Shown here piece after piece: positions 16,801 through 37,866 of a stretch of 64,000 nucleotides of DNA (positions are counted from its first letter, which is position 1; each line of letters starts with the position of its first letter). The stretch spans positions 1-64,000 of the IMG/VR virus record IMGVR_UViG_3300009788_000096. One strand, 5' to 3'. This DNA is from a virus. Made by a program: the position numbers and the translations under genes. The notes beneath the pieces were generated by a model that was not told where the DNA came from, searched no databases, and saw only the letters and a program-made list of their open reading frames with translations.

Positions 16801-18171
16801 TTGAGACAAGCGTTAGAAAAAGTAGAAGTATTATCGGATCGCTGGTATCCATTAGATTACCATCCAACTCAAGCTGAATTATGGAATTCCACATCCCGCT
16901 TTAACGTTGTTCCAGCTGGCCGTCGTTCTGGGAAAACCGAAATATCAGGAAAACGGAAAGTAATTATAAAGGCGTTACAAGGCGATCCGAAATATCCTGA
17001 TTATAACATCTTCGTAGCAGCTCCCACTTTTAATCAAGCAAAACGAATCTATTGGTCTGATCTGAAAAAACTCTCCCCGAAACATCTTATTAAAAGGGTT
17101 CGAGAATCCGGGCTTTCCATCGAATATATTATGGGAAGTACTATCCAAGTTATGGGTATGGACAAGCCCGAAAGAATAGAGGGATCTCCTTGGAATCATG
17201 GTGTCCTGGATGAATATGGAAACATGAAGGAGCAGACATGGCCAGAACACGTTCGCCCTGCCCTTGCTGATCGCAATGGGACATGTGACTTCATTGGTGT
17301 TCCGGAAGGTAGAAATCATTATTATGACTTGTGGAAACGGACCCTTAGTGATGACACTGGGTTGTGGGCTGGCCATCACTGGATAAGCGCAGATATTTTA
17401 CCTGCTGACGAAATAGAACAAGCGAAAAGAGATCTGGATGACTTAACTTACCAACAGGAATTCGAAGGATCATTTGTTCTTTTCGCAGGAATGGCTTATT
17501 ACAACTGGAACGAAAAAAGAAATGCTCAACCGTGGGCTCAGCATTATAATCCGAAAGGAGATCTAATTTTCATGTTGGATTTTAATGTTGAACCAGGAGT
17601 TGCGGCTGTTGCACAGGAAATGAGAAGTTATATTCCGGGTCAACTCGCTATTGTCGGAAAAAGTACTACCGCGATTATCGGAGAAGTTTATATTCCACGG
17701 AACTCTAATACGATAAGGGTTTGTAATAAGCTCGCAGAAGACTGGGGAGAACACAAGGGAAATGTCTTCTGCTATGGGGATTCCACAGGAGGAGCTGGAG
17801 GAAGCGCGAAGATCGCGGGCTCCGATTGGGATTTGGTGAAGAAAGTTCTATTTCCGGTTTTTGGCGAGCGCTTACATTTTAGGGTTCCGGCCGCAAACCC
17901 ACGCGAGAGAGTCAGAGTCAATTCGGTCAATTCTCGGTTGAAAAACGTTCTGGGCGAATCCTATTTAGTTGTTGATCCCGGAAAGGCTCCGCATGTAGTA
18001 AAAGACTTTGAAGGCGTAAGATTAATTGTGGGCGGAACGGGAGATATCGACAAAAAGGCCGATCCTAAGTTAACTCACTTGTCCGACGCGGTTGGTTACT
18101 ATATCCACAGAGAGTATCCTGTCCGTCGTTATGTGGCTTCCACTGAAAAACGTTTTCTCAAGGCAGCATAA
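16801..18171 (+). CDS. terL: terminase large subunit
   Basis: AGRRSGKT Walker A, GVLDE Walker B, YQQEFEGSF, nuclease DFN...HLSDA. Confidence 0.95.
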   Translation: MRQALEKVEVLSDRWYPLDYHPTQAELWNSTSRFNVVPAGRRSGKTEISGKRKVIIKALQGDPKYPDYNIFVAAPTFNQAKRIYWSDLKKLSPKHLIKRVRESGLSIEYIMGSTIQVMGMDKPERIEGSPWNHGVLDEYGNMKEQTWPEHVRPALADRNGTCDFIGVPEGRNHYYDLWKRTLSDDTGLWAGHHWISADILPADEIEQAKRDLDDLTYQQEFEGSFVLFAGMAYYNWNEKRNAQPWAQHYNPKGDLIFMLDFNVEPGVAAVAQEMRSYIPGQLAIVGKSTTAIIGEVYIPRNSNTIRVCNKLAEDWGEHKGNVFCYGDSTGGAGGSAKIAGSDWDLVKKVLFPVFGERLHFRVPAANPRERVRVNSVNSRLKNVLGESYLVVDPGKAPHVVKDFEGVRLIVGGTGDIDKKADPKLTHLSDAVGYYIHREYPVRRYVASTEKRFLKAA

Positions 18172-18182
18172 GGAGAAGTGTT

Positions 18183-18404
18183 ATGGCAGTACGGATGAAA
18201 AGGAAATCACGAATTACATCAAAACAAAAGTCGGCTCGTAGAAAGAATATGGCGCTTGCCAGGAAGTCAAAAAAGGACAATAAAAAGAAGATTAAGAAAT
18301 CGTTGACTGGTAGACCTCAAATTACGACAAGCAGATCTGGCAAAAGAACGAAATGGACAAAGGGAGTTCCACGACCCACTGGACCCAGGAAACGAAGAAA
18401 ATAA
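18183..18404 (+). CDS. small highly basic protein
   Basis: AGGAG SD; KQKSARRKN motif shared with 20104-20325. Confidence 0.7.
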   Translation: MAVRMKRKSRITSKQKSARRKNMALARKSKKDNKKKIKKSLTGRPQITTSRSGKRTKWTKGVPRPTGPRKRRK

Positions 18405-19752: not shown

Positions 19753-20008
19753 TGATGTATACAAACCAAAGTCAGACAAAGAATGGCAAGCAGAAAATGA
19801 TGCCAACACTCTTGCGAGAGCAAACTTAATTACTTCGGATGCAGAGAGATTAAGTGCCGCGCAAGATGCAGCTGCTCAAATGGCTGAGAAAGAAAAAGAA
19901 GAAGCGGCAGCAATGACTAAGGTAGCAAAAGGCCAAAAGACCAGACCGGCCCGAGAAGGAACAGGTCAATCACCTTCAAGAGATTTCAATGTGTTCGAAA
20001 AGATTTAA
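19742..20008 (+). CDS. hypothetical protein (WQAENDANTLARA motif)
   Basis: Operon packing, AAGGAG SD. Confidence 0.65.
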   Translation: MMIDDVYKPKSDKEWQAENDANTLARANLITSDAERLSAAQDAAAQMAEKEKEEAAAMTKVAKGQKTRPAREGTGQSPSRDFNVFEKI

Positions 20009-20014
20009 GTCAAA

Positions 20015-20086
20015 GAGGGAATAGCTCAGTGGTAGAGTGCCGGCTTTCCAGGCTGGATGTCGTAGGTTCAAATCCTGCTTCCCTCT
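20015..20086 (+). tRNA. tRNA-Gly (anticodon TCC), atypical acceptor stem, no encoded CCA
   Basis: GAGGGAA/TTCCCTC acceptor, TAGCTCAGTGGTAGAG D-arm, anticodon 20047-20049, GGTTCAAATCC T-loop, discriminator U. Confidence 0.85.
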
Positions 20087-20103
20087 CTAATAAGGAGGAT
20101 GTT

Positions 20104-20325
20104 ATGGCAAAACGGAAGATGACCGCATCAGAACGGCATTTTATGGGTAAGCCGAAGAAGATCAGTGCGAAACAAAAATCAGCTCGCAGGAAGAATATCA
20201 AAATTGCACGGAAGTCAAAGAAGGGAAGAGGAAAAGGGAAGAAGCGGACAAAGAAACAAGAACGTGATAATATGTTTTCCTCCAGAGAGAAAAGAGTATT
20301 GTCTTGGATCAAAGCGAATAGGTAA
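20104..20325 (+). CDS. small highly basic protein (paralog of 18183-18404)
   Basis: AAGGAGG SD; ISAKQKSARRKNIKIARKSKK. Confidence 0.7.
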   Translation: MAKRKMTASERHFMGKPKKISAKQKSARRKNIKIARKSKKGRGKGKKRTKKQERDNMFSSREKRVLSWIKANR

Positions 20326-20341
20326 TAAGGGAGGTGATCTT

Positions 20342-20488
20342 ATGCCTAAAGGAACAAGGGTCCACAGGTGAGTGCTAAAAAAAACCCGTAGGGGTATGGG
20401 TAAAACGTCAGCGATTAAGCTCTGTCAGAAGTCAACTGGTCAGAGTTATGCGACAGGAAGGAAGTCAAGAAAAGGGAGGAAGTCATAA
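20342..20488 (+). CDS. candidate selenoprotein 1 (48 aa, in-frame TGA at codon 10)
   Basis: GGAGGTG SD; MPKGTRVHR-U-VLKKTRRGMGKTSAIKLCQKSTGQSYATGRKSRKGRKS; hairpin ACCC-GTAG-GGGT after the TGA. Confidence 0.65.
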
Positions 20489-20595
20489 TGCCTAAAAAGA
20501 AAAAAGCGACCCTGAAACAATGAGTGGCTAAACGTCTTCGACGTGGAGGGTCGAAAAAAGCAGCAACAAAACATTGCAAGCAGTCAAGAAAATAA
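20488..20595 (+). CDS. candidate selenoprotein 2 (35 aa, in-frame TGA at codon 12)
   Basis: GGAGG SD, TAATG overlap; MPKKKKATLKQ-U-VAKRLRRGGSKKAATKHCKQSRK; hairpin TTCGAC-GTGGAGG-GTCGAA. Confidence 0.65.
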
Positions 20596-20607
20596 AAAGG
20601 AAGAACA

Positions 20608-22170
20608 ATGCCTGAGCCTAAACAAAAATTAAAGATTGGGGATTTGAAAAAGGTCCATAAGCTATATGCACTGAATAGTGCGGAATGGCGATTCTTGTTA
20701 GCAGCCTATGAGGGAGCTAAAGAATTACTTCGACTCGGCTTTCTGGAAAAACACGAACGGGAAAGTCAAGATAATTACGAACGAAGATTAAAAGAAGCAT
20801 ATGGTTTTAGCTATTCCCGTTCCGTCGTGGACCTTTTCAATTTCTATCTTTTTAAGGAACCTGTTAAACGGGAATACGGAAAGCTCAAAGATGATAAACT
20901 GTTTGAGCTGTTTCTAAAGGACTGCAATCTTTATAAAGATGCATGGGATGACTTCTTGACGAACGTTGACTTGTATGCTTCCGTTTGTGGTTTCATGGGA
21001 TTGCTTATCGACAAGGCTTCTGTTGTCTTCGATAATAAACAGCAGCAATTAGAAGCAGAAGTATATCCCTATATCGCTGCATATTATCCAACCGCAATAC
21101 TGGATTGGGACTTTGATCGAGACGAATATAACAGGCCGTTCCTTGCATACTTAAAGCTTCTTGACGACGACGGCCAGTATAGGCTCTGGTGGCCGGACAA
21201 ATTTGAAATATGGGAAATACCAGAAGATGATCCTGATGAACAGGATGATCAGGGTGAAGACAAACAAACCGAAGTCGACGATGAGAAAAATGCGACCTTT
21301 ATAAAGGGAGGGGTTAATCCATTAGGGGAAATACCTTTTATATGGCTGTACAATCTTAAACACAAAAAGCGTCCATTGGGAATCAGCGATATACATGATG
21401 TTGCAAGAATTGATGTTTCCATACTGCGGAATTTAAGTCAAGGTGAGGAAGTAATTAATTGGGGAGCTTTCCCAATGCTTCGTATGCCTTTGAGAGAAAC
21501 GAAGCCCGGAGTTGATGGTGTGGCCGTTCCGACAAAGGAAGCAGAAGTAGGCGAACAAGCAGTATTGGAGTTTGACCCGGAACACCCGGAATCGAAGCCC
21601 GACTGGCTTGACTCTGCGGTAGCTGAACCGATTAATTCACTTCTTGCCTGGATTGCGAAGAAAGTCGGTGAGATATATCGTGCGGTTAATGCTGGTGGAC
21701 AATCATCGATGGAAACGTCTACAGCGGTAAAATCGGGTGCAACGTTAAAAGCAGAATTCCAATTACTCAATGCTTCACTTGTAAAGAAAGCAATCAATCT
21801 GGAACAGGCAGAAACAGAGACTTTGCGATTATGGTGTAAGTGGGAAGAACGAGAGGAGGATGTAAAGGAGACAAGTGTTGAAAGAGCAAGAAGTTATGAT
21901 GTTGACGATTTGACTTCTGCACTGGAAAACGTATTGACTTCATTAGTGATCGTAACATCGAAGAAGTTTAATGAAGCAATGCAAAAACAGGTTGTCCGTG
22001 ATATGATGCCTGCTGCTGATAATGATGAGTTAAAAGAAATTGATGATGAAATCGAAGAATCTGTAGAAACACCAGTTCAGGGAGCGACGGAACCAACCGA
22101 AGAGGATCTGGAAGAAGAAGATGAACGATTTCAATTTAACGAAGAAGAAGAGGAGGAGGAAGAGGAATAA
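20608..22170 (+). CDS. portal protein
   Basis: 520 aa after terL; 'LEKHERESQDNYERRL', 'NPLGEIPFIW', 'SG..L..EF..LN..L'; acidic tail. Confidence 0.88.
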   Translation: MPEPKQKLKIGDLKKVHKLYALNSAEWRFLLAAYEGAKELLRLGFLEKHERESQDNYERRLKEAYGFSYSRSVVDLFNFYLFKEPVKREYGKLKDDKLFELFLKDCNLYKDAWDDFLTNVDLYASVCGFMGLLIDKASVVFDNKQQQLEAEVYPYIAAYYPTAILDWDFDRDEYNRPFLAYLKLLDDDGQYRLWWPDKFEIWEIPEDDPDEQDDQGEDKQTEVDDEKNATFIKGGVNPLGEIPFIWLYNLKHKKRPLGISDIHDVARIDVSILRNLSQGEEVINWGAFPMLRMPLRETKPGVDGVAVPTKEAEVGEQAVLEFDPEHPESKPDWLDSAVAEPINSLLAWIAKKVGEIYRAVNAGGQSSMETSTAVKSGATLKAEFQLLNASLVKKAINLEQAETETLRLWCKWEEREEDVKETSVERARSYDVDDLTSALENVLTSLVIVTSKKFNEAMQKQVVRDMMPAADNDELKEIDDEIEESVETPVQGATEPTEEDLEEEDERFQFNEEEEEEEEE

Positions 22171-22718
22171 TGTTTAATAAACTTGATCTATATATGAGAC
22201 ATCGGCCTGATATGAAATCTGGGGATCTTGTTGAATTTGGTTCTTCTTCAATGATCGGGAAAGCTATTAAATGGTTCACTAAAAAAGATGTCAATCATTC
22301 TGCTTTCCTATTTCGCATTGACTCTTTCGTTGGCCTTAAGGACAGAGTATTTGTAATCGAAGCATTAAATGAAGGACTTGAGATAAATGCCCTGTCCTCA
22401 AGGATCAAGGAATATGCCGGAATGGTTTATTGGTATCCTTTGAAAAAGAAGTATGAAGCATTCCGTGACCCAATGTCTTCGTTCGCTTTCATGATGGAAG
22501 CAAAGACAGTTGAGAAGCGATATGACTATGTCTCGTTATTCGCAAATATGTTCGGTAAAGTTTCGATAGACGCAAAAAGGTTTTTCTGTTCTGAGTTTTA
22601 TCATGCATCAATGATTTATGCCGGAATGACTATTGCAAAGAAAGCGCTGAGACCGGGAGAGTTTGAAGAATTGGGCTTCCACGATAGCAGATTTACGATT
22701 GGAGAGGATATATCATGA
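22170..22718 (+). CDS. permuted papain-like (YiiX/YebB NlpC/P60) enzyme
   Basis: GDLV..NHSA..VIEA..YDY..FFCSE. Confidence 0.8.
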   Translation: MFNKLDLYMRHRPDMKSGDLVEFGSSSMIGKAIKWFTKKDVNHSAFLFRIDSFVGLKDRVFVIEALNEGLEINALSSRIKEYAGMVYWYPLKKKYEAFRDPMSSFAFMMEAKTVEKRYDYVSLFANMFGKVSIDAKRFFCSEFYHASMIYAGMTIAKKALRPGEFEELGFHDSRFTIGEDIS

Positions 22719-22888
22719 TAAAAACAAAAAAGAAGAGAAGTCATATTGCACAAATGCTTAATCCGAAAACCGGACGTTATGTGAAAGTCAATAAGGATAA
22801 GGGGACTATCCTTCGCTATAAGCAAACTCCGGGACCTTATAAAGGAGTGCCAATAGCGCGTAAACAGAAGAGGAAGAATGCAGTATAG
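22715..22888 (+). CDS. small basic protein (57 aa)
   Basis: GAGG SD; NPKTGRYVKV...PGPYKGV. Confidence 0.6.
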   Translation: MIKTKKKRSHIAQMLNPKTGRYVKVNKDKGTILRYKQTPGPYKGVPIARKQKRKNAV

Positions 22889-23084
22889 GTTAAAGCGGGA
22901 TCTGGTGATCCCGTCTGGAACAGTATTTAAAAAGTCCCCGAACAGGTTGATGCTTGGAGCTGGCTGTCACGAATGCCAATTATTTACTCCTGACAAAATG
23001 TGCATTACTACTTTAGTTTGCAAATTACAAAATAGCGAAATATTCGAAGAGGAATTCGAAGAAGAGGATATCGAAGAAATCTAA
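22878..23084 (+). CDS. hypothetical protein
   Basis: Operon packing. Confidence 0.55.
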   Translation: MQYRLKRDLVIPSGTVFKKSPNRLMLGAGCHECQLFTPDKMCITTLVCKLQNSEIFEEEFEEEDIEEI

Positions 23085-25342
23085 TGGCTGTTAGCCCTAC
23101 ACAACTTGTTTCAATGGTTCGCCGAGAACAGGGAAAAATTAACTCTGTAGAAGCGGAACATATCAAACGGTTATCCAGCACTATAAACGAATTGGAGAAA
23201 AATATACGCAGTTATATGGGACAGCTGCAAACGACCGCTGGCGGCAGGCTGACAGGCGTCAAAGTCAATTTAAAACAGGCTCAAGCGATACACAAGAAAA
23301 TGTTAGTGGAGTTTCAAACAACGTACGGCGTTGCAGTAAGAGATATGGTCGATGATTACGACGAACTCTCCGACTTTATTGAAGGGAGTTTTAAATCGCT
23401 TGATAAGTCAATTAGTTTTTCAGGATACGATCAAACAATGATGGACCTTTTAAAACAACAGAGTTACGATGACTATATGCAATATGGCACCGCAGCTCAA
23501 AACCGAATTGCTACCGGTATGTATAATGCCGTTATAGCAGGGCATTCCAGAGCCCAACTTGAACAACTGATTCGGGGAGTTTTAACAGGCCATAAAGATG
23601 TCCGTGGCCGGCCAATGGAAACTTATGCTAAGCAGCATACGAAAGATGCTGTCATGAATTTCTATAATGAAGTCCATCAGAAGAAAGCCGAAGATGTTGG
23701 TTTGAAGCATTTTATGTACTTCGGTGACATTATAAATACTTCACGGGATTTCTGTCGTATCCGTGTTGGGAAGTACTATACGAAGAAGACAATTAACTCT
23801 TGGAAACATGCATGGACAGGGAAGCGAGGGAACGCATGGGATTATAGAGGTGGTTGGAATTGTCGGCATCATTGGAGAGGCATCGATCCTGATTGGTTAG
23901 AAGAAGATGAATTCGGGCCAATCGAAGAAGATGAAATGGCTGCCTATATGGAAGAAGATAATTTTTCGGAAATAAAGGCAACCATTTCAGAGAAGGAAGG
24001 TTTAAAAAGACAACATGCCGCATCACTTGCAAAGAGTAAAACGCTCCGTGCACAGAGAGAAAAACTAAAAGGGTTACAGGTAACTCCTGCGCGGACTCAG
24101 AAGATAAAGGATCTGCGACAGGAGTTAATTGCGGAGAAGGGAATCCGTGATAATATAAAGGGTGGAGTTGTCAAGGCAAAGACCGATCTTGCGAAACAAG
24201 GGAGGAAAATTAAAAGAGACGTAGCGGAAGGAGTAACACCAAAGGCTCTGACGAAGGCTGAATTAGAACCGGTAACTGTGAAAGCGAGTGCCAGTGCAAA
24301 GGACTTAGGTATTAGCAGCATTCAAGATAGAAGTATGAGCCGAAAGAAATTCAAGGATTTTGATAAACAGGTTGTAACTCCTTTCAAAGAGCAAATGAGT
24401 CATATTGCAAACATGGGTGATGGGAGTATCGGAAAGCAATTAAAAGATATGCCGTTTAACGTTGAAGTATTTAACGAATCCGAAATTCCTCGTGCCCTTG
24501 CTAAGAAGACAATGGAAGCTTCTTATAATTCCGGGAAAAAGAGAATCCGGTATGCTATTAAGGGTGACAGTTTACTTTGGAAGAAAGGAGCACCGAGATC
24601 TGGTTACTGGAGAGTATCCGAACATGGCATTAGCACTTATAGTCATGAGGTTGGCCATCATGTGCAAGATGTAGTTATGGATAAACGTCTTGTTTCCAGA
24701 TGGAATCAGACATTTCATAGTCAGCCGGAAAGTTGGTGGAAGACAAATCTCTCTCAGTACGGTAGTCTTAATGCAGAGGAAGCATTCGCTGAATCGTTTG
24801 CTGCTTTTACTAATACGAAATACAAGAGGGGCATGCTTCCAAAAGACGTGGAAGGATTCTTCGATGACTTGTTCGGTGTCAAGCAAGCGAAGAAGTTGGC
24901 TAAAACGGTTGTTAAAGAAGCGGTAGAAGCAACTGCGGAAGTCAAAAAAGCTTGGTCTCAAACTCTTTATCACGGAGCGAATGAAGCAGGATATGCTAAT
25001 ATTCCAAAGGAAGGTTTTAAGTTTAGTTCACAGTCAATATTTGGGAAAGGCGTTTATTTTACTGATAAAAAAACAGATGCAGCTCAGTGGGCATTTTCAG
25101 ATAAAGCTATATTTAAAGTCAAAGCCAACGTGAAAAATGTTATGACTGTTGACTTCACTGATTTGAGTCCGTCTGGATTAGAGACGATTAAGGAGTGGAG
25201 TGATATCCAAGCTTTGGGTGGAGAAAAGGCGCGACAAGCTTTTTTAAAAGCTGGATATGATGGTTATTCAATAAAATTAGCGTCTGGCGAAACTCATTTT
25301 ATTGTGCTTGATCCAAAGTTAATAGAATTAAAAAAGGTATAA
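23084..25342 (+). CDS. MuF-type minor head protein fused to a zincin peptidase and an ADP-ribosyltransferase-like domain
   Basis: SRDFC...GGWNCRHHW (MuF); SHEVGHH...YG...EEAFAESF; LYHG...FGKGVYFT...AGYDG. Confidence 0.8.
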   Translation: MAVSPTQLVSMVRREQGKINSVEAEHIKRLSSTINELEKNIRSYMGQLQTTAGGRLTGVKVNLKQAQAIHKKMLVEFQTTYGVAVRDMVDDYDELSDFIEGSFKSLDKSISFSGYDQTMMDLLKQQSYDDYMQYGTAAQNRIATGMYNAVIAGHSRAQLEQLIRGVLTGHKDVRGRPMETYAKQHTKDAVMNFYNEVHQKKAEDVGLKHFMYFGDIINTSRDFCRIRVGKYYTKKTINSWKHAWTGKRGNAWDYRGGWNCRHHWRGIDPDWLEEDEFGPIEEDEMAAYMEEDNFSEIKATISEKEGLKRQHAASLAKSKTLRAQREKLKGLQVTPARTQKIKDLRQELIAEKGIRDNIKGGVVKAKTDLAKQGRKIKRDVAEGVTPKALTKAELEPVTVKASASAKDLGISSIQDRSMSRKKFKDFDKQVVTPFKEQMSHIANMGDGSIGKQLKDMPFNVEVFNESEIPRALAKKTMEASYNSGKKRIRYAIKGDSLLWKKGAPRSGYWRVSEHGISTYSHEVGHHVQDVVMDKRLVSRWNQTFHSQPESWWKTNLSQYGSLNAEEAFAESFAAFTNTKYKRGMLPKDVEGFFDDLFGVKQAKKLAKTVVKEAVEATAEVKKAWSQTLYHGANEAGYANIPKEGFKFSSQSIFGKGVYFTDKKTDAAQWAFSDKAIFKVKANVKNVMTVDFTDLSPSGLETIKEWSDIQALGGEKARQAFLKAGYDGYSIKLASGETHFIVLDPKLIELKKV

Positions 25343-37252: not shown

Positions 37253-37866
37253 TGGCTGATAGTTTAGAAGACTTAGGAGGTTATAGTATTTTTCCAGTTG
37301 AACCCAATTGGCTTCATAAACCCAGTATGAATCTTGAGCTTGCAAGAATACTGATGAAGTATACTGGTACTGCCGCGAAGTTATCTTCCTTTACGGATCA
37401 TGTGCCAGAAGCATGGAAGTTGGGTTTTACTCCAAGTAAAGAAGATGAACATGACTTAATCGTTTTTTTCATTGCAAGGTATGGAAAGCATGGTGGTTTC
37501 TGGATAAAGATTCCAGCGCGGGAGTTTACACTTTACTCTAATTCCCTTAGTGGTTCAACGGAAATAAGGGTTGAAAATAATGGTGCTGAGCAACAGTATC
37601 AGGGATACGAAAGAATTTGGATAGACATGCACAGCAATGATATTTTAACCCGCAAGGTATTGACTACCACCAAGGAAGATGATTATCTTTCGTTGGGACT
37701 TAGTGTCTCTTTGGATAGGGACGTTACACCATCCACTCATTTTAAAATTTGTCGATTGCTCTTTTGTAGATTTGATGAAGATATGTTGAAGATGAGTTTT
37801 GGTCAGAACCAGTACCCCGACATAACACTTGCGGTACGCGAATTAGTTAGGGAATATCCAGCATGA
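37252..37866 (+). CDS. distal tail-like protein
   Basis: 'EPNW','FFIARYGKHGGFW','RFDED'. Confidence 0.6.
   Translation: MADSLEDLGGYSIFPVEPNWLHKPSMNLELARILMKYTGTAAKLSSFTDHVPEAWKLGFTPSKEDEHDLIVFFIARYGKHGGFWIKIPAREFTLYSNSLSGSTEIRVENNGAEQQYQGYERIWIDMHSNDILTRKVLTTTKEDDYLSLGLSVSLDRDVTPSTHFKICRLLFCRFDEDMLKMSFGQNQYPDITLAVRELVREYPA

What the first reader, a model, noticed from the sequence alone, without database searches (positions are those of the whole stretch)
20342..20595. Two tandem paralogous mini-proteins with in-frame UGA and bSECIS-like hairpins: candidate phage selenoproteins
Seen: two SD-led, translationally coupled ORFs, both absent as such from the ORF track, are each interrupted by TGA (20369, 20521). 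They align across it: R-U-VLKKTRRGMGKTSAIKL-C-QKS versus Q-U-VAKRLRRGGSKKAATKH-C-KQS, an identical U-x17-C spacing. Read through, they tile the gap up to the portal gene exactly. Each TGA is followed by a hairpin whose loop starts with GU, 16 nt (ACCC-GTAG-GGGT) and 19 nt (TTCGAC-GTGGAGG-GTCGAA) downstream. Established: the bacterial SECIS lies just 3' of UGA with a G at the start of the apical loop, and Sec replaces Cys. Inference: basic DNA-binding or virion peptides with a Se-S redox switch, made only in a SelAB/tRNA-Sec host (e.g. a sulfate reducer) and possibly sensing selenium. Phage selenoproteins are, to my knowledge, barely described.
Basis: partly seen in the sequence, partly recalled or inferred. 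Interest (0 to 1): 0.88.

Follow-up and report, generated by a model that had tools for sequence, protein, structure and literature searches.

The report
Two phage mini-genes encoding selenocysteine
Two tiny genes beside the portal gene of an uncultured 95-kb phage each carry a UGA "stop" where related phage proteins have an invariant cysteine, followed by the kind of RNA hairpin bacteria use to insert selenocysteine, so they most likely encode selenium-containing phage proteins, which no paper I could search describes.

Summary
ORF1 (20342-20488) and ORF2 (20488-20595) both have a Shine-Dalgarno (SD) site. They are coupled through a TAATG overlap and fill the gap up to the portal gene. Each has one in-frame TGA, followed 17 residues later by a Cys.

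The TGA aligns with an invariant Cys in a family of small basic phage proteins of about 360 clusters (motif MPKGT-V--C ... CQ-STGQSY). Pattern scans found nine further TGA forms in other phage contigs.
- Codons on both sides of the TGA show coding constraint.
- The codon after the TGA is often not a start codon.
- All 11 TGA forms have a covarying 4-7 bp hairpin starting 12-16 nt after the UGA, with G in the first two loop positions. This fits the published bacterial selenocysteine insertion sequence (bSECIS) consensus. Only 10 of 63 Cys forms have a hairpin there.

TGA is an ordinary stop elsewhere in this phage. The phage has no tRNA-Sec, SelA, SelB or SelD, so decoding must rely on an unidentified host.

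An AlphaFold model (pLDDT 88) is a helical hairpin that should place Sec10 opposite Cys28. The protein's function is unknown. ORF2 is a truncated paralogue seen only in this phage.

I found no paper describing a phage selenoprotein. Earlier notes of this scan report the same signature in other phage gene families, but not in this one.

The parts
20329..20334 (+). Shine-Dalgarno GGGAGG of ORF1
   Evidence: Read directly from the sequence. All ten other TGA-form genes also have an SD-like site before their ATG.
20342..20488 (+). ORF1, a 48-residue basic protein when the TGA is read as Sec (P0002). It is a full-length member of the MPKGT-V--C...CQ-STGQSY family.
   Evidence: Coding constraint on both sides of the TGA is shown.
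20369..20371 (+). In-frame TGA at codon 10 of ORF1, aligned to the family's invariant Cys10
20384..20401 (+). bSECIS-like hairpin of ORF1: ACCCGUA / GGGG / UAUGGGU. It starts 12 nt after the UGA, with 19 nt between the UGA and the loop.
20423..20425 (+). TGT, the invariant Cys28 of ORF1 and proposed partner of Sec10
   Evidence: The position opposite Sec10 is inferred from the helix boundaries of the model.
20474..20479 (+). Shine-Dalgarno GGGAGG of ORF2, lying inside the end of ORF1
20488..20595 (+). ORF2, a 35-residue truncated paralogue (P0003). It keeps the MPK start, U-x17-C spacing and basic character but lacks the STGQSY-TG tail. Its ATG overlaps ORF1's TAA as TAATG.
   Evidence: No second example was found.
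20521..20523 (+). In-frame TGA at codon 12 of ORF2
20537..20555 (+). bSECIS-like hairpin of ORF2: UUCGAC / GUGGAGG / GUCGAA. It starts 13 nt after the UGA.
   Evidence: It is the centroid structure; the minimum-energy fold is a competitor.
20575..20577 (+). TGC, Cys30 of ORF2, 17 residues after the Sec codon
20608..22170 (+). Portal protein gene, the constant neighbour of the small gene in the phage lineage that carries TGA forms
   Evidence: phrog_145, E 4e-55. Synteny is shown.

Best explanation
ORF1, and probably ORF2, are selenoprotein genes of a phage.

Proposed sequence of events:
1. Both ORFs are transcribed with the terminase-portal head module.
2. The ribosome starts at the SD-led AUG and translates 9 codons (ORF1) or 11 codons (ORF2).
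3. At the UGA, the host's SelB carrying Sec-tRNA(Sec) is held on the mRNA hairpin that begins 12-13 nt downstream. It inserts selenocysteine instead of allowing termination.
4. ORF1's stop overlaps ORF2's start (UAAUG), which couples their translation.

The products are very basic peptides of 48 and 35 residues that fold as a helix-turn-helix hairpin. In that fold Sec10 (Sec12 in ORF2) should lie opposite the invariant Cys28 (Cys30), so an intramolecular selenylsulfide staple is the likely role of the pair.

What is shown: the TGA is conserved and sits inside a constrained reading frame, it is equivalent to Cys in relatives, and the hairpin is conserved and covaries. What is inferred: SelB and Sec as the decoding agents, the Se-S bond, and any role in the head or in binding DNA.

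Expression would require a host with SelA, SelB, SelC and SelD plus a selenium supply, because the phage encodes none of these.
For: 1. Sec/Cys pairing. In 20 database proteins and 79 of 80 phage loci the aligned codon is Cys (TGT or TGC). Cys10 and Cys28 are invariant in 70 aligned sequences.

2. The TGA is shared. Nine further distinct TGA forms occur in other phage and metagenome contigs: L092, L094, L098, L099, L102, L106, L107, L110 and L112.

3. The frame is read through.
- Among eight of the TGA forms compared pairwise (ORF2, L102 and L112 left out), codon positions 1+2 are 89% identical upstream of the TGA and 67% downstream. Position 3 is 44% and 40% identical, and dS is saturated.
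- No other stop occurs in the frame.
- The family motifs after the TGA are kept.

4. There is no restart. The codon after the TGA is GTC, GTA or GTT in six forms, and the SD precedes the upstream ATG.

5. The hairpin.
- All 11 TGA forms have a 4-7 bp stem starting 12-16 nt after the UGA, with a 3-7 nt loop that has G in its first two positions and 18-20 nt between UGA and loop. This meets every structural criterion of the bSECIS model quoted in PMC13188914.
- Only 10 of 63 Cys forms have any such hairpin (Fisher test 8e-8).
- Close Cys relatives with the same peptide motif (L010, L017, L031, L053), and the Cys form L023 from the same portal lineage, lack it.
- The eight distinct stems have different sequences. 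Each pairs 4 of 4 with its own partner arm but averages 1.7 of 4 with the others' arms.
- The native sequences fold more stably than synonymous-codon shuffles (combined p 1e-5).

6. TGA is otherwise a stop in this phage. This includes ATGA overlaps, and the extensions past TGA stops are short. The only tRNAs are Gly(UCC) and Ile(UAU).

7. The AlphaFold2 model has mean pLDDT 88.5, with helices at 6-16 and 21-32. In an antiparallel hairpin with this turn, residues 10 and 28 face each other.
Against: - There is no direct evidence of selenium incorporation.
- The host is unknown, so whether it has SelA, SelB, SelC and SelD could not be checked. The phage encodes none of them.
- The hairpins are short. 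Individually they are not significant against shuffles (z -1.8 and -0.25).
- Rfam reports nothing at the site.
- The GG in the loop comes from a conserved Gly codon that Cys forms also have.
- The 11 TGA forms are not independent: there are about 6 sequence groups and 8 distinct stems. My pattern scans also required the conserved N-terminus, and the metagenome scan additionally required GT after the TGA.
- ORF2 has no known orthologue and lacks the conserved C-terminal motif.
- No other selenoprotein candidate was seen in this genome by a crude screen.
Confidence: 0.72

Rival explanations
1. The UGA is decoded, but not through SelB. Near-cognate read-through by tRNA-Cys or tRNA-Trp, helped by a downstream hairpin, would give a Cys or Trp protein at low yield, as in the leaky UGA of phage Q-beta.
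For: UGA is the leakiest stop codon in bacteria, and Q-beta uses it in this way (my own knowledge). The hairpins are small and individually unremarkable. No Sec machinery could be tied to the phage.
Against: - The position is an invariant Cys. Trp, the usual bacterial insertion at UGA, would replace an essential residue.
- Leaky read-through would make a 9-residue peptide the main product.
- A conserved, covarying hairpin at SECIS distance is present in TGA forms and mostly absent from Cys forms. Selenocysteine decoding predicts this pattern. Plain leakiness does not require it.
Confidence: 0.12
2. ORF1 is a working selenoprotein gene, but ORF2 is a decaying partial duplicate that is not made, or has no function.
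For: - ORF2 is truncated just after the second Cys and lacks the nearly invariant Q-S-T-Q-S-T-G positions.
- No second example was found.
- Its hairpin is not the minimum-energy fold.
Against: ORF2 keeps every element needed for expression as a selenopeptide:
- an SD site
- an ATG coupled to ORF1's stop
- the TGA
- the exact 17-residue spacing to Cys
- an open frame
- a hairpin in the correct register whose sequence differs from ORF1's, so it has been kept or rebuilt rather than merely copied
Confidence: 0.25
3. The TGAs are true stops. The genes would then be pseudogenes, or short leader peptides followed by separately initiated downstream peptides, or assembly errors.
For: In the window both TGAs are followed by GTG, a possible start codon. 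Table 11 gene callers would split the genes in this way.
Against: - Six homologues have GTC, GTA or GTT after the TGA, with no start codon.
- The TGA recurs in 11 sequences from independent assemblies even though synonymous sites are saturated, while both flanks stay under coding constraint in one frame.
- The peptide before the TGA is the conserved N-terminus of the uninterrupted Cys forms.
Confidence: 0.04
4. The phage or its host reads TGA as a sense codon throughout the genome (genetic code 4 or 25).
For: Recoded phages are known (my own knowledge).
Against: - TGA ends many well-supported genes here, including ATGA overlaps at 22715-22718 and 37863-37866, and the extensions past these stops are short.
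- The phage has no suppressor tRNA.
- Trp or Gly would not fit an invariant Cys position.
Confidence: 0.02

Closest known systems
Bacterial selenoprotein genes with an in-ORF SECIS read by SelB (prototype E. coli fdhF; bSECIS consensus as summarised in PMC13188914)
   Same: - An in-frame UGA sits at a position that is Cys in homologues.
- A stem-loop lies inside the coding sequence directly after the UGA.
- The loop is 3-7 nt with G in its first two positions, the stem is 4-7 bp, and 18-20 nt separate the UGA from the loop.
- The stem begins 12-16 nt after the UGA. From memory, the minimal fdhF element begins 11 nt after it.
   Different: - The gene belongs to a phage that has no Sec machinery of its own.
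- The protein is a roughly 48-residue basic helical hairpin with no recognisable redox-enzyme fold or UxxC/CxxU motif.
- Two such genes lie in tandem.
- SelB binding has not been shown.
Poxvirus glutathione peroxidase selenoproteins (molluscum contagiosum, fowlpox), the viral selenoproteins listed in the recoding review PMC8310308
   Same: A virus-encoded selenoprotein that depends on the host's Sec machinery. In fowlpox the SECIS lies in the coding region.
   Different: Those are eukaryotic viruses carrying captured cellular GPx enzymes with eukaryotic SECIS elements. Here the virus is a bacteriophage, the family is phage-specific, and the hairpin is of the bacterial type.
tRNA-Sec genes predicted in huge phages (PMC10747093)
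   Same: That paper suggests phages may use selenocysteine.
   Different: It reports only tRNA predictions and describes no selenoprotein gene. This phage is the reverse case: candidate selenoprotein genes and no tRNA-Sec.
Cys forms of the same phage family (MPKGT-V--C...CQ-STGQSY; about 360 clusters), with a weak link to Pfam DUF7218
   Same: ORF1 is a full-length member at 50-68% identity with the same two invariant positions. The genes lie in head and packaging modules next to the large terminase subunit (TerL), the portal or the head protease.
   Different: The first Cys is written as TGA and followed by a hairpin. Many Cys forms are the N-terminal module of 100-600-residue proteins rich in Lys, Ala and Glu, whereas the window's copies are stand-alone genes.

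Membership tests
Bacterial-type selenoprotein gene (Sec-UGA + bSECIS) | In-frame UGA inside a reading frame that is conserved on both sides | tested here: met
   Codon positions 1+2 are 89% identical upstream and 67% downstream of the TGA, against 44% and 40% at position 3. There is no other stop in the frame.
Bacterial-type selenoprotein gene (Sec-UGA + bSECIS) | Cys-containing homologues align Cys with the UGA (Sec/Cys pair) | tested here: met
   Cys10 is invariant in A1 and A3. 79 of 80 loci have TGT or TGC at this codon.
Bacterial-type selenoprotein gene (Sec-UGA + bSECIS) | TGA-containing homologues occur in other genomes | tested here: met
   Nine further distinct TGA forms were found. 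They are spread over a portal lineage of 45-63% identity, and one lies in a different gene context.
Bacterial-type selenoprotein gene (Sec-UGA + bSECIS) | bSECIS consensus: 3-9 nt apical loop, 4-16 bp upper stem, G in the first two loop positions, 16-37 nt between UGA and loop | tested here: met
   All 11 TGA forms qualify: loops 3-7 nt, stems 4-7 bp, spacing 18-20 nt (criteria from PMC13188914). By reading the loops, 5 of 63 Cys forms meet all the criteria. The bSECISearch program itself was not available.
Bacterial-type selenoprotein gene (Sec-UGA + bSECIS) | The decoding organism has SelA, SelB, SelD and tRNA-Sec | not testable with these tools
   The host is unknown. The phage itself has none of them, and two related phage records have no tRNA-Sec.
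Bacterial-type selenoprotein gene (Sec-UGA + bSECIS) | Selenium is actually incorporated at the UGA | not testable with these tools
   This needs 75Se labelling or mass spectrometry.
Pfam DUF7218 (PF23855) | Match to the family profile above the curated threshold | tested here: not met
   The window protein has no Pfam hit. Only 2 of 22 relatives match, with a best E of 1.2e-6. I treat this as a possible distant link only.
Stop-codon-recoded phage (TGA read as sense genome-wide) | TGA is absent as a stop, in-frame TGAs occur in many genes, and a suppressor tRNA is present | tested here: not met
   TGA terminates many well-supported genes. The only tRNAs are Gly(UCC) and Ile(UAU).

The most novel reading that the evidence does not exclude
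Selenocysteine serves here as a structural staple rather than a catalytic residue. A Sec10-Cys28 selenylsulfide would lock a tiny, very basic helical hairpin belonging to the phage head or packaging module. The bond would hold under reducing, sulfidic conditions that open an ordinary disulfide. That would explain why TGA forms turn up in subsurface and sediment-type phages. It would also tie production of a late phage protein to the host's Sec machinery and selenium supply.
Probability: 0.25. Interest if true: 0.85.

Novelty: new variant of a known kind. Interest (0 to 1): 0.76.

Why it matters
Selenoproteins are catalogued for cells and for a few poxviruses. The 2026 review of prokaryotic selenoproteomes that I searched does not mention phages or viruses, and a 2021 review of viral recoding lists only poxvirus GPx.

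A phage-specific selenoprotein family would show four things:
- Phages exploit the host's SelB/SECIS system.
- Standard gene callers systematically split such genes.
- A new, very small selenoprotein family exists whose fold suggests a structural Se-S bond rather than an enzyme active site.
- Sec-UGA genes could serve as a host-range marker, since the host must be Sec-competent.

The case is easy to test: the protein has 48 residues, a single UGA and an 18-nt hairpin.

Tried and rejected
- **Rfam.** A scan of 19900-20700 at E up to 10 found only the tRNA. Bacterial SECIS elements are too varied for this to count against the reading.
- **Covariance model.** A model built on the ungapped alignment with one fixed register (R1) recovered the 11 sites. 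It aligned them without gaps, so it could not represent the different loop sizes. I did not use it for pair counts and used per-sequence hairpins instead.
- **Other TGA genes in the genome.** An unsupervised list of TGA-joined frames was mostly noise. A gene-map screen of TGA-terminated genes gave no convincing second candidate.
- **MuF.** MuF in this phage and its relatives has Cys, not TGA, at its conserved Cys positions.
- **TGA at the second Cys.** No such form is present in viral contigs.
- **ORF2-like sequences elsewhere.** The scan gave two false positives only.
- **Genome contigs pattern scan.** One false positive and no prophage copy.
- **Host inference.**
  - The nearest isolated phages have only 34% TerL identity and mixed proteobacterial hosts.
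  - No isolate phage carries the family.
  - The record labelled 'provirus' (G001) holds only phage genes.
- **Sequencing runs.** One DNA holder, probably the source sample, and no RNA holder listed.
- **Fold and family searches.** Foldseek against the PDB gave nothing below E 2.8. A PDB sequence-profile search gave nothing. The ESM Atlas gave only unnamed viral clusters and a weak DUF6496 lead at 0.80. Ten fused long forms gave no significant Pfam or PHROG family; only one of them had weak hits.
- I queried the related database protein P0006 instead.

Full report
**Setting**

The window is the first 64 kb of a 95,402-bp IMG/VR phage record that CheckV rates as complete. Its one listed sequencing-run holder is labelled 'subsurface metagenome'. 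The finding lies in the head and packaging module:
- large terminase subunit (TerL), 16801-18171 (Terminase_6N)
- several small genes
- tRNA-Gly(UCC), 20015-20087
- a 73-residue basic protein, 20104-20325
- the two small ORFs
- portal, 20608-22170 (phrog_145, E 4e-55)
- MuF-type protein, 23084-25342

**The observation**

- ORF1 (20342-20488) has GGGAGG 7 nt before its ATG, TGA as codon 10, TGT as codon 28 and a TAA stop.
- ORF2 starts at 20488 inside TAATG, has its own GGGAGG, TGA as codon 12, TGC as codon 30, and ends at 20595, 12 nt before the portal ATG.
- Both have 17 residues between the TGA and the Cys.
- The two read-through products share 42% identity.

**Is TGA a sense codon in this phage generally?**

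No. TGA ends many well-supported genes, including ATGA overlaps, and reading on past those TGAs gives only short extensions. The whole genome carries only tRNA-Gly(UCC) and tRNA-Ile(UAU). It has no match above threshold to tRNA-Sec, SelB, SelA or SelD.

**The family**

With Cys placed at the TGA, ORF1 finds 20 small database proteins (44-70 residues, 48-68% identity) with a shared motif (MPKGT-V--C ... CQ-STGQSY-TG). The residue aligned to the TGA is an invariant Cys, as is Cys28.
- A tblastn-confirmed scan of IMG/VR gave 80 loci. Seventy-nine have TGT or TGC at this codon and one (L016) has TGA.
- A profile search of 1.84 billion representative proteins found 360 clusters at E <= 1e-3. Many of them carry the module at the N-terminus of 100-600-residue proteins rich in Lys, Ala and Glu that have no Pfam or PHROG family.
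- The window protein has no Pfam hit, and two relatives touch DUF7218 weakly.
- No isolated phage in INPHARED has the family.
- In sampled Cys-form loci the gene lies next to TerL, next to the portal, or after the head protease.

**More TGA forms**

Pattern scans that required the conserved N-terminus plus TGA found nine further distinct forms:
- L092 (= L108)
- L094 (= L016 = L103)
- L098 (= L004; L100 = L009)
- L099 (= L109)
- L102, L106, L107, L110 and L112

All have an SD site before the ATG, TGA at codon 10, an open frame afterwards and the family's downstream motifs. In six of them the codon after the TGA is GTC, GTA or GTT. This rules out restarting at the GTG that follows both TGAs in the window.

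Among eight of the TGA forms compared pairwise (ORF2, L102 and L112 left out), synonymous sites are saturated. Third codon positions are about 40-44% identical, while positions 1+2 are 89% identical before the TGA and 67% after it. Both sides are therefore translated in one frame.

**Phage lineage**

The gene lies directly before the portal in the window, L092, L098 and L112, and directly after it in L094/L103 and L106. On a portal tree the TGA-bearing phages are spread across a lineage with 45-63% portal identity. One Cys form (L023) sits beside the window/L092/L112 group. L099 lies in a different, unannotated gene context. The TGA state is therefore old, recurrent, or both, and it has been maintained.

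**The hairpin**

Every TGA form has a contiguous 4-7 bp stem beginning 12-16 nt after the UGA. The loop is 3-7 nt, covers the conserved Gly codon and has G in its first or second position. There are 18-20 nt between the UGA and the loop, and energies run from -3.9 to -8.9 kcal/mol. These values satisfy the bSECIS consensus as quoted in the 2026 review PMC13188914: loop 3-9 nt, stem 4-16 bp, G in the first two loop positions, spacing 16-37 nt.

- **Control against Cys forms.** Only 10 of 63 distinct Cys forms have any hairpin in this register (Fisher test 8e-8; Mann-Whitney test 2e-8). By reading their loops, five meet all the criteria.
- **Close Cys relatives.** Those with nearly the same peptide (L010, L017, L031, L053), and L023 from the same phage lineage, lack the hairpin.
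- **Covariation.** The eight distinct stems differ in sequence, and each pair position shows 2-5 different pair types. Each 5' arm pairs 4 of 4 with its own 3' arm but averages 1.7 of 4 with the arms of other sequences.
- **Amino-acid constraint.** With the protein sequence held fixed, the native codons fold more stably than synonymous shuffles (combined p 1e-5; the Cys forms have a median p of 0.38).
- **Caveats.**
  - The 11 sequences fall into about six related groups.
  - The scans were biased towards the conserved N-terminus.
  - The window's two hairpins are not significant on their own (z -1.8 and -0.25). For ORF2 the hairpin is the centroid structure, not the minimum-energy one.
  - Rfam finds nothing at the site.

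**Structure and likely role**

AlphaFold2 run on the 70-sequence alignment gives mean pLDDT 88.5, with helix 6-16, a turn, helix 21-32 and then a short beta bridge. In an antiparallel hairpin with this turn, residues 10 and 28 face each other. Their invariance therefore fits an intramolecular S-S bond, or an Se-S bond in the TGA forms.

Fold and profile searches against solved structures were uninformative. Four observations suggest a head-associated or nucleic-acid-binding structural protein:
- the strong positive charge
- the position beside portal, terminase or protease genes
- the fusion to long charged tails in other phages
- the absence of any enzyme-like motif

This is inference only, and I give it roughly one chance in three.

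From memory, selenylsulfide bonds are considerably harder to reduce than disulfides. That would make a Sec staple useful in reducing habitats. I did not test this.

**ORF2**

ORF2 is a shortened paralogue that ends five residues after the second Cys. It has no known orthologue. It still keeps the SD site, the coupled start, the TGA, the exact spacing and a hairpin in the correct register with a different sequence from ORF1's. I rate it as probably expressed but clearly less secure than ORF1.

**Literature and earlier scan notes**

Four full-text searches found no description of a bacteriophage selenoprotein.
- The recoding review PMC8310308 lists only poxvirus GPx as viral selenoproteins.
- PMC13188914 does not mention phages or viruses.
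- PMC10747093 reports predicted tRNA-Sec genes in huge phages and speculates about selenoproteins, but names no gene.

Earlier notes of this scan report the same Sec/Cys-plus-hairpin signature in other phage gene families on other genomes. A sequence look-up found no note on this family, and there are no notes on relatives of this stretch. I did not re-test those notes. The exception is the MuF note, for which I checked MuF here and in relatives and found Cys codons.

**Verdict**

By every comparative criterion used to call bacterial selenoproteins, ORF1 is a selenoprotein gene carried by a phage, and ORF2 probably is too. Three things remain open: proof of selenium incorporation, the identity and Sec competence of the host, and the protein's function.

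Noticed in passing
window 18183-18404 and 20104-20325: Two 73-residue, extremely basic proteins in the terminase-portal interval share a short motif (S/T-KQKSARRKN; 11 of 17 identical, E 2e-5). Neither has a Pfam hit. The same interval therefore holds four small basic genes, as two paralogous pairs.
   Followed up: partly
window 20015-20087: A tRNA-Gly(UCC) gene lies inside the head module, 255 nt upstream of ORF1. The phage's only other tRNA is Ile(UAU), at genome position 64177-64251, just beyond the window. Neither can read UGA.
   Followed up: yes
window 22715-22888: A 57-residue basic protein overlaps the stop of the preceding gene as ATGA. It has a 49%-identical counterpart in the related phage record behind L098, so it is another conserved mini-gene of this module.
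   Followed up: partly
window 23084-25342: The 752-residue MuF-like head protein (weak Phage_min_cap2 match) has weak matches to a zincin-like region (ATLF, residues 518-585) and to a C-terminal PARP/ART-PolyVal-like ADP-ribosyltransferase domain (residues 624-745).
   Followed up: partly
window 22170-22718: The 182-residue gene directly after the portal gives a weak PHROG match to 'enoyl-CoA hydratase/carnithine racemase-like' (E 3e-7). In this position it could be a ClpP/crotonase-fold head protease or scaffold-processing enzyme.
   Followed up: no
P0031, P0033, P0035, P0062, P0083 (database proteins); L037, L053, L062: In many phages the same two-Cys module is the N-terminus of 100-600-residue proteins rich in Lys, Ala and Glu. 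These carry recurring short motifs (such as YK-hydrophobic-G---L-E) and have no Pfam or PHROG family. In L053 the fused form follows the head maturation protease, the usual place of a scaffold protein.
   Followed up: partly
L116/L117 (record G001, the relative behind L098): The related phage encodes a DegT-type aminotransferase, a queuine-tRNA-ribosyltransferase-like (DpdA-type) protein, and a family A DNA polymerase with an N-terminal uracil-DNA-glycosylase-like domain. These hint at modified DNA. IMG/VR labels the record 'provirus', but only phage genes were seen.
   Followed up: partly
L011, L044, L057, L082 (Cys forms): A few Cys-form genes have a hairpin in the same register as the TGA forms. 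These could be chance, or remnants of past Sec-to-Cys conversions.
   Followed up: no
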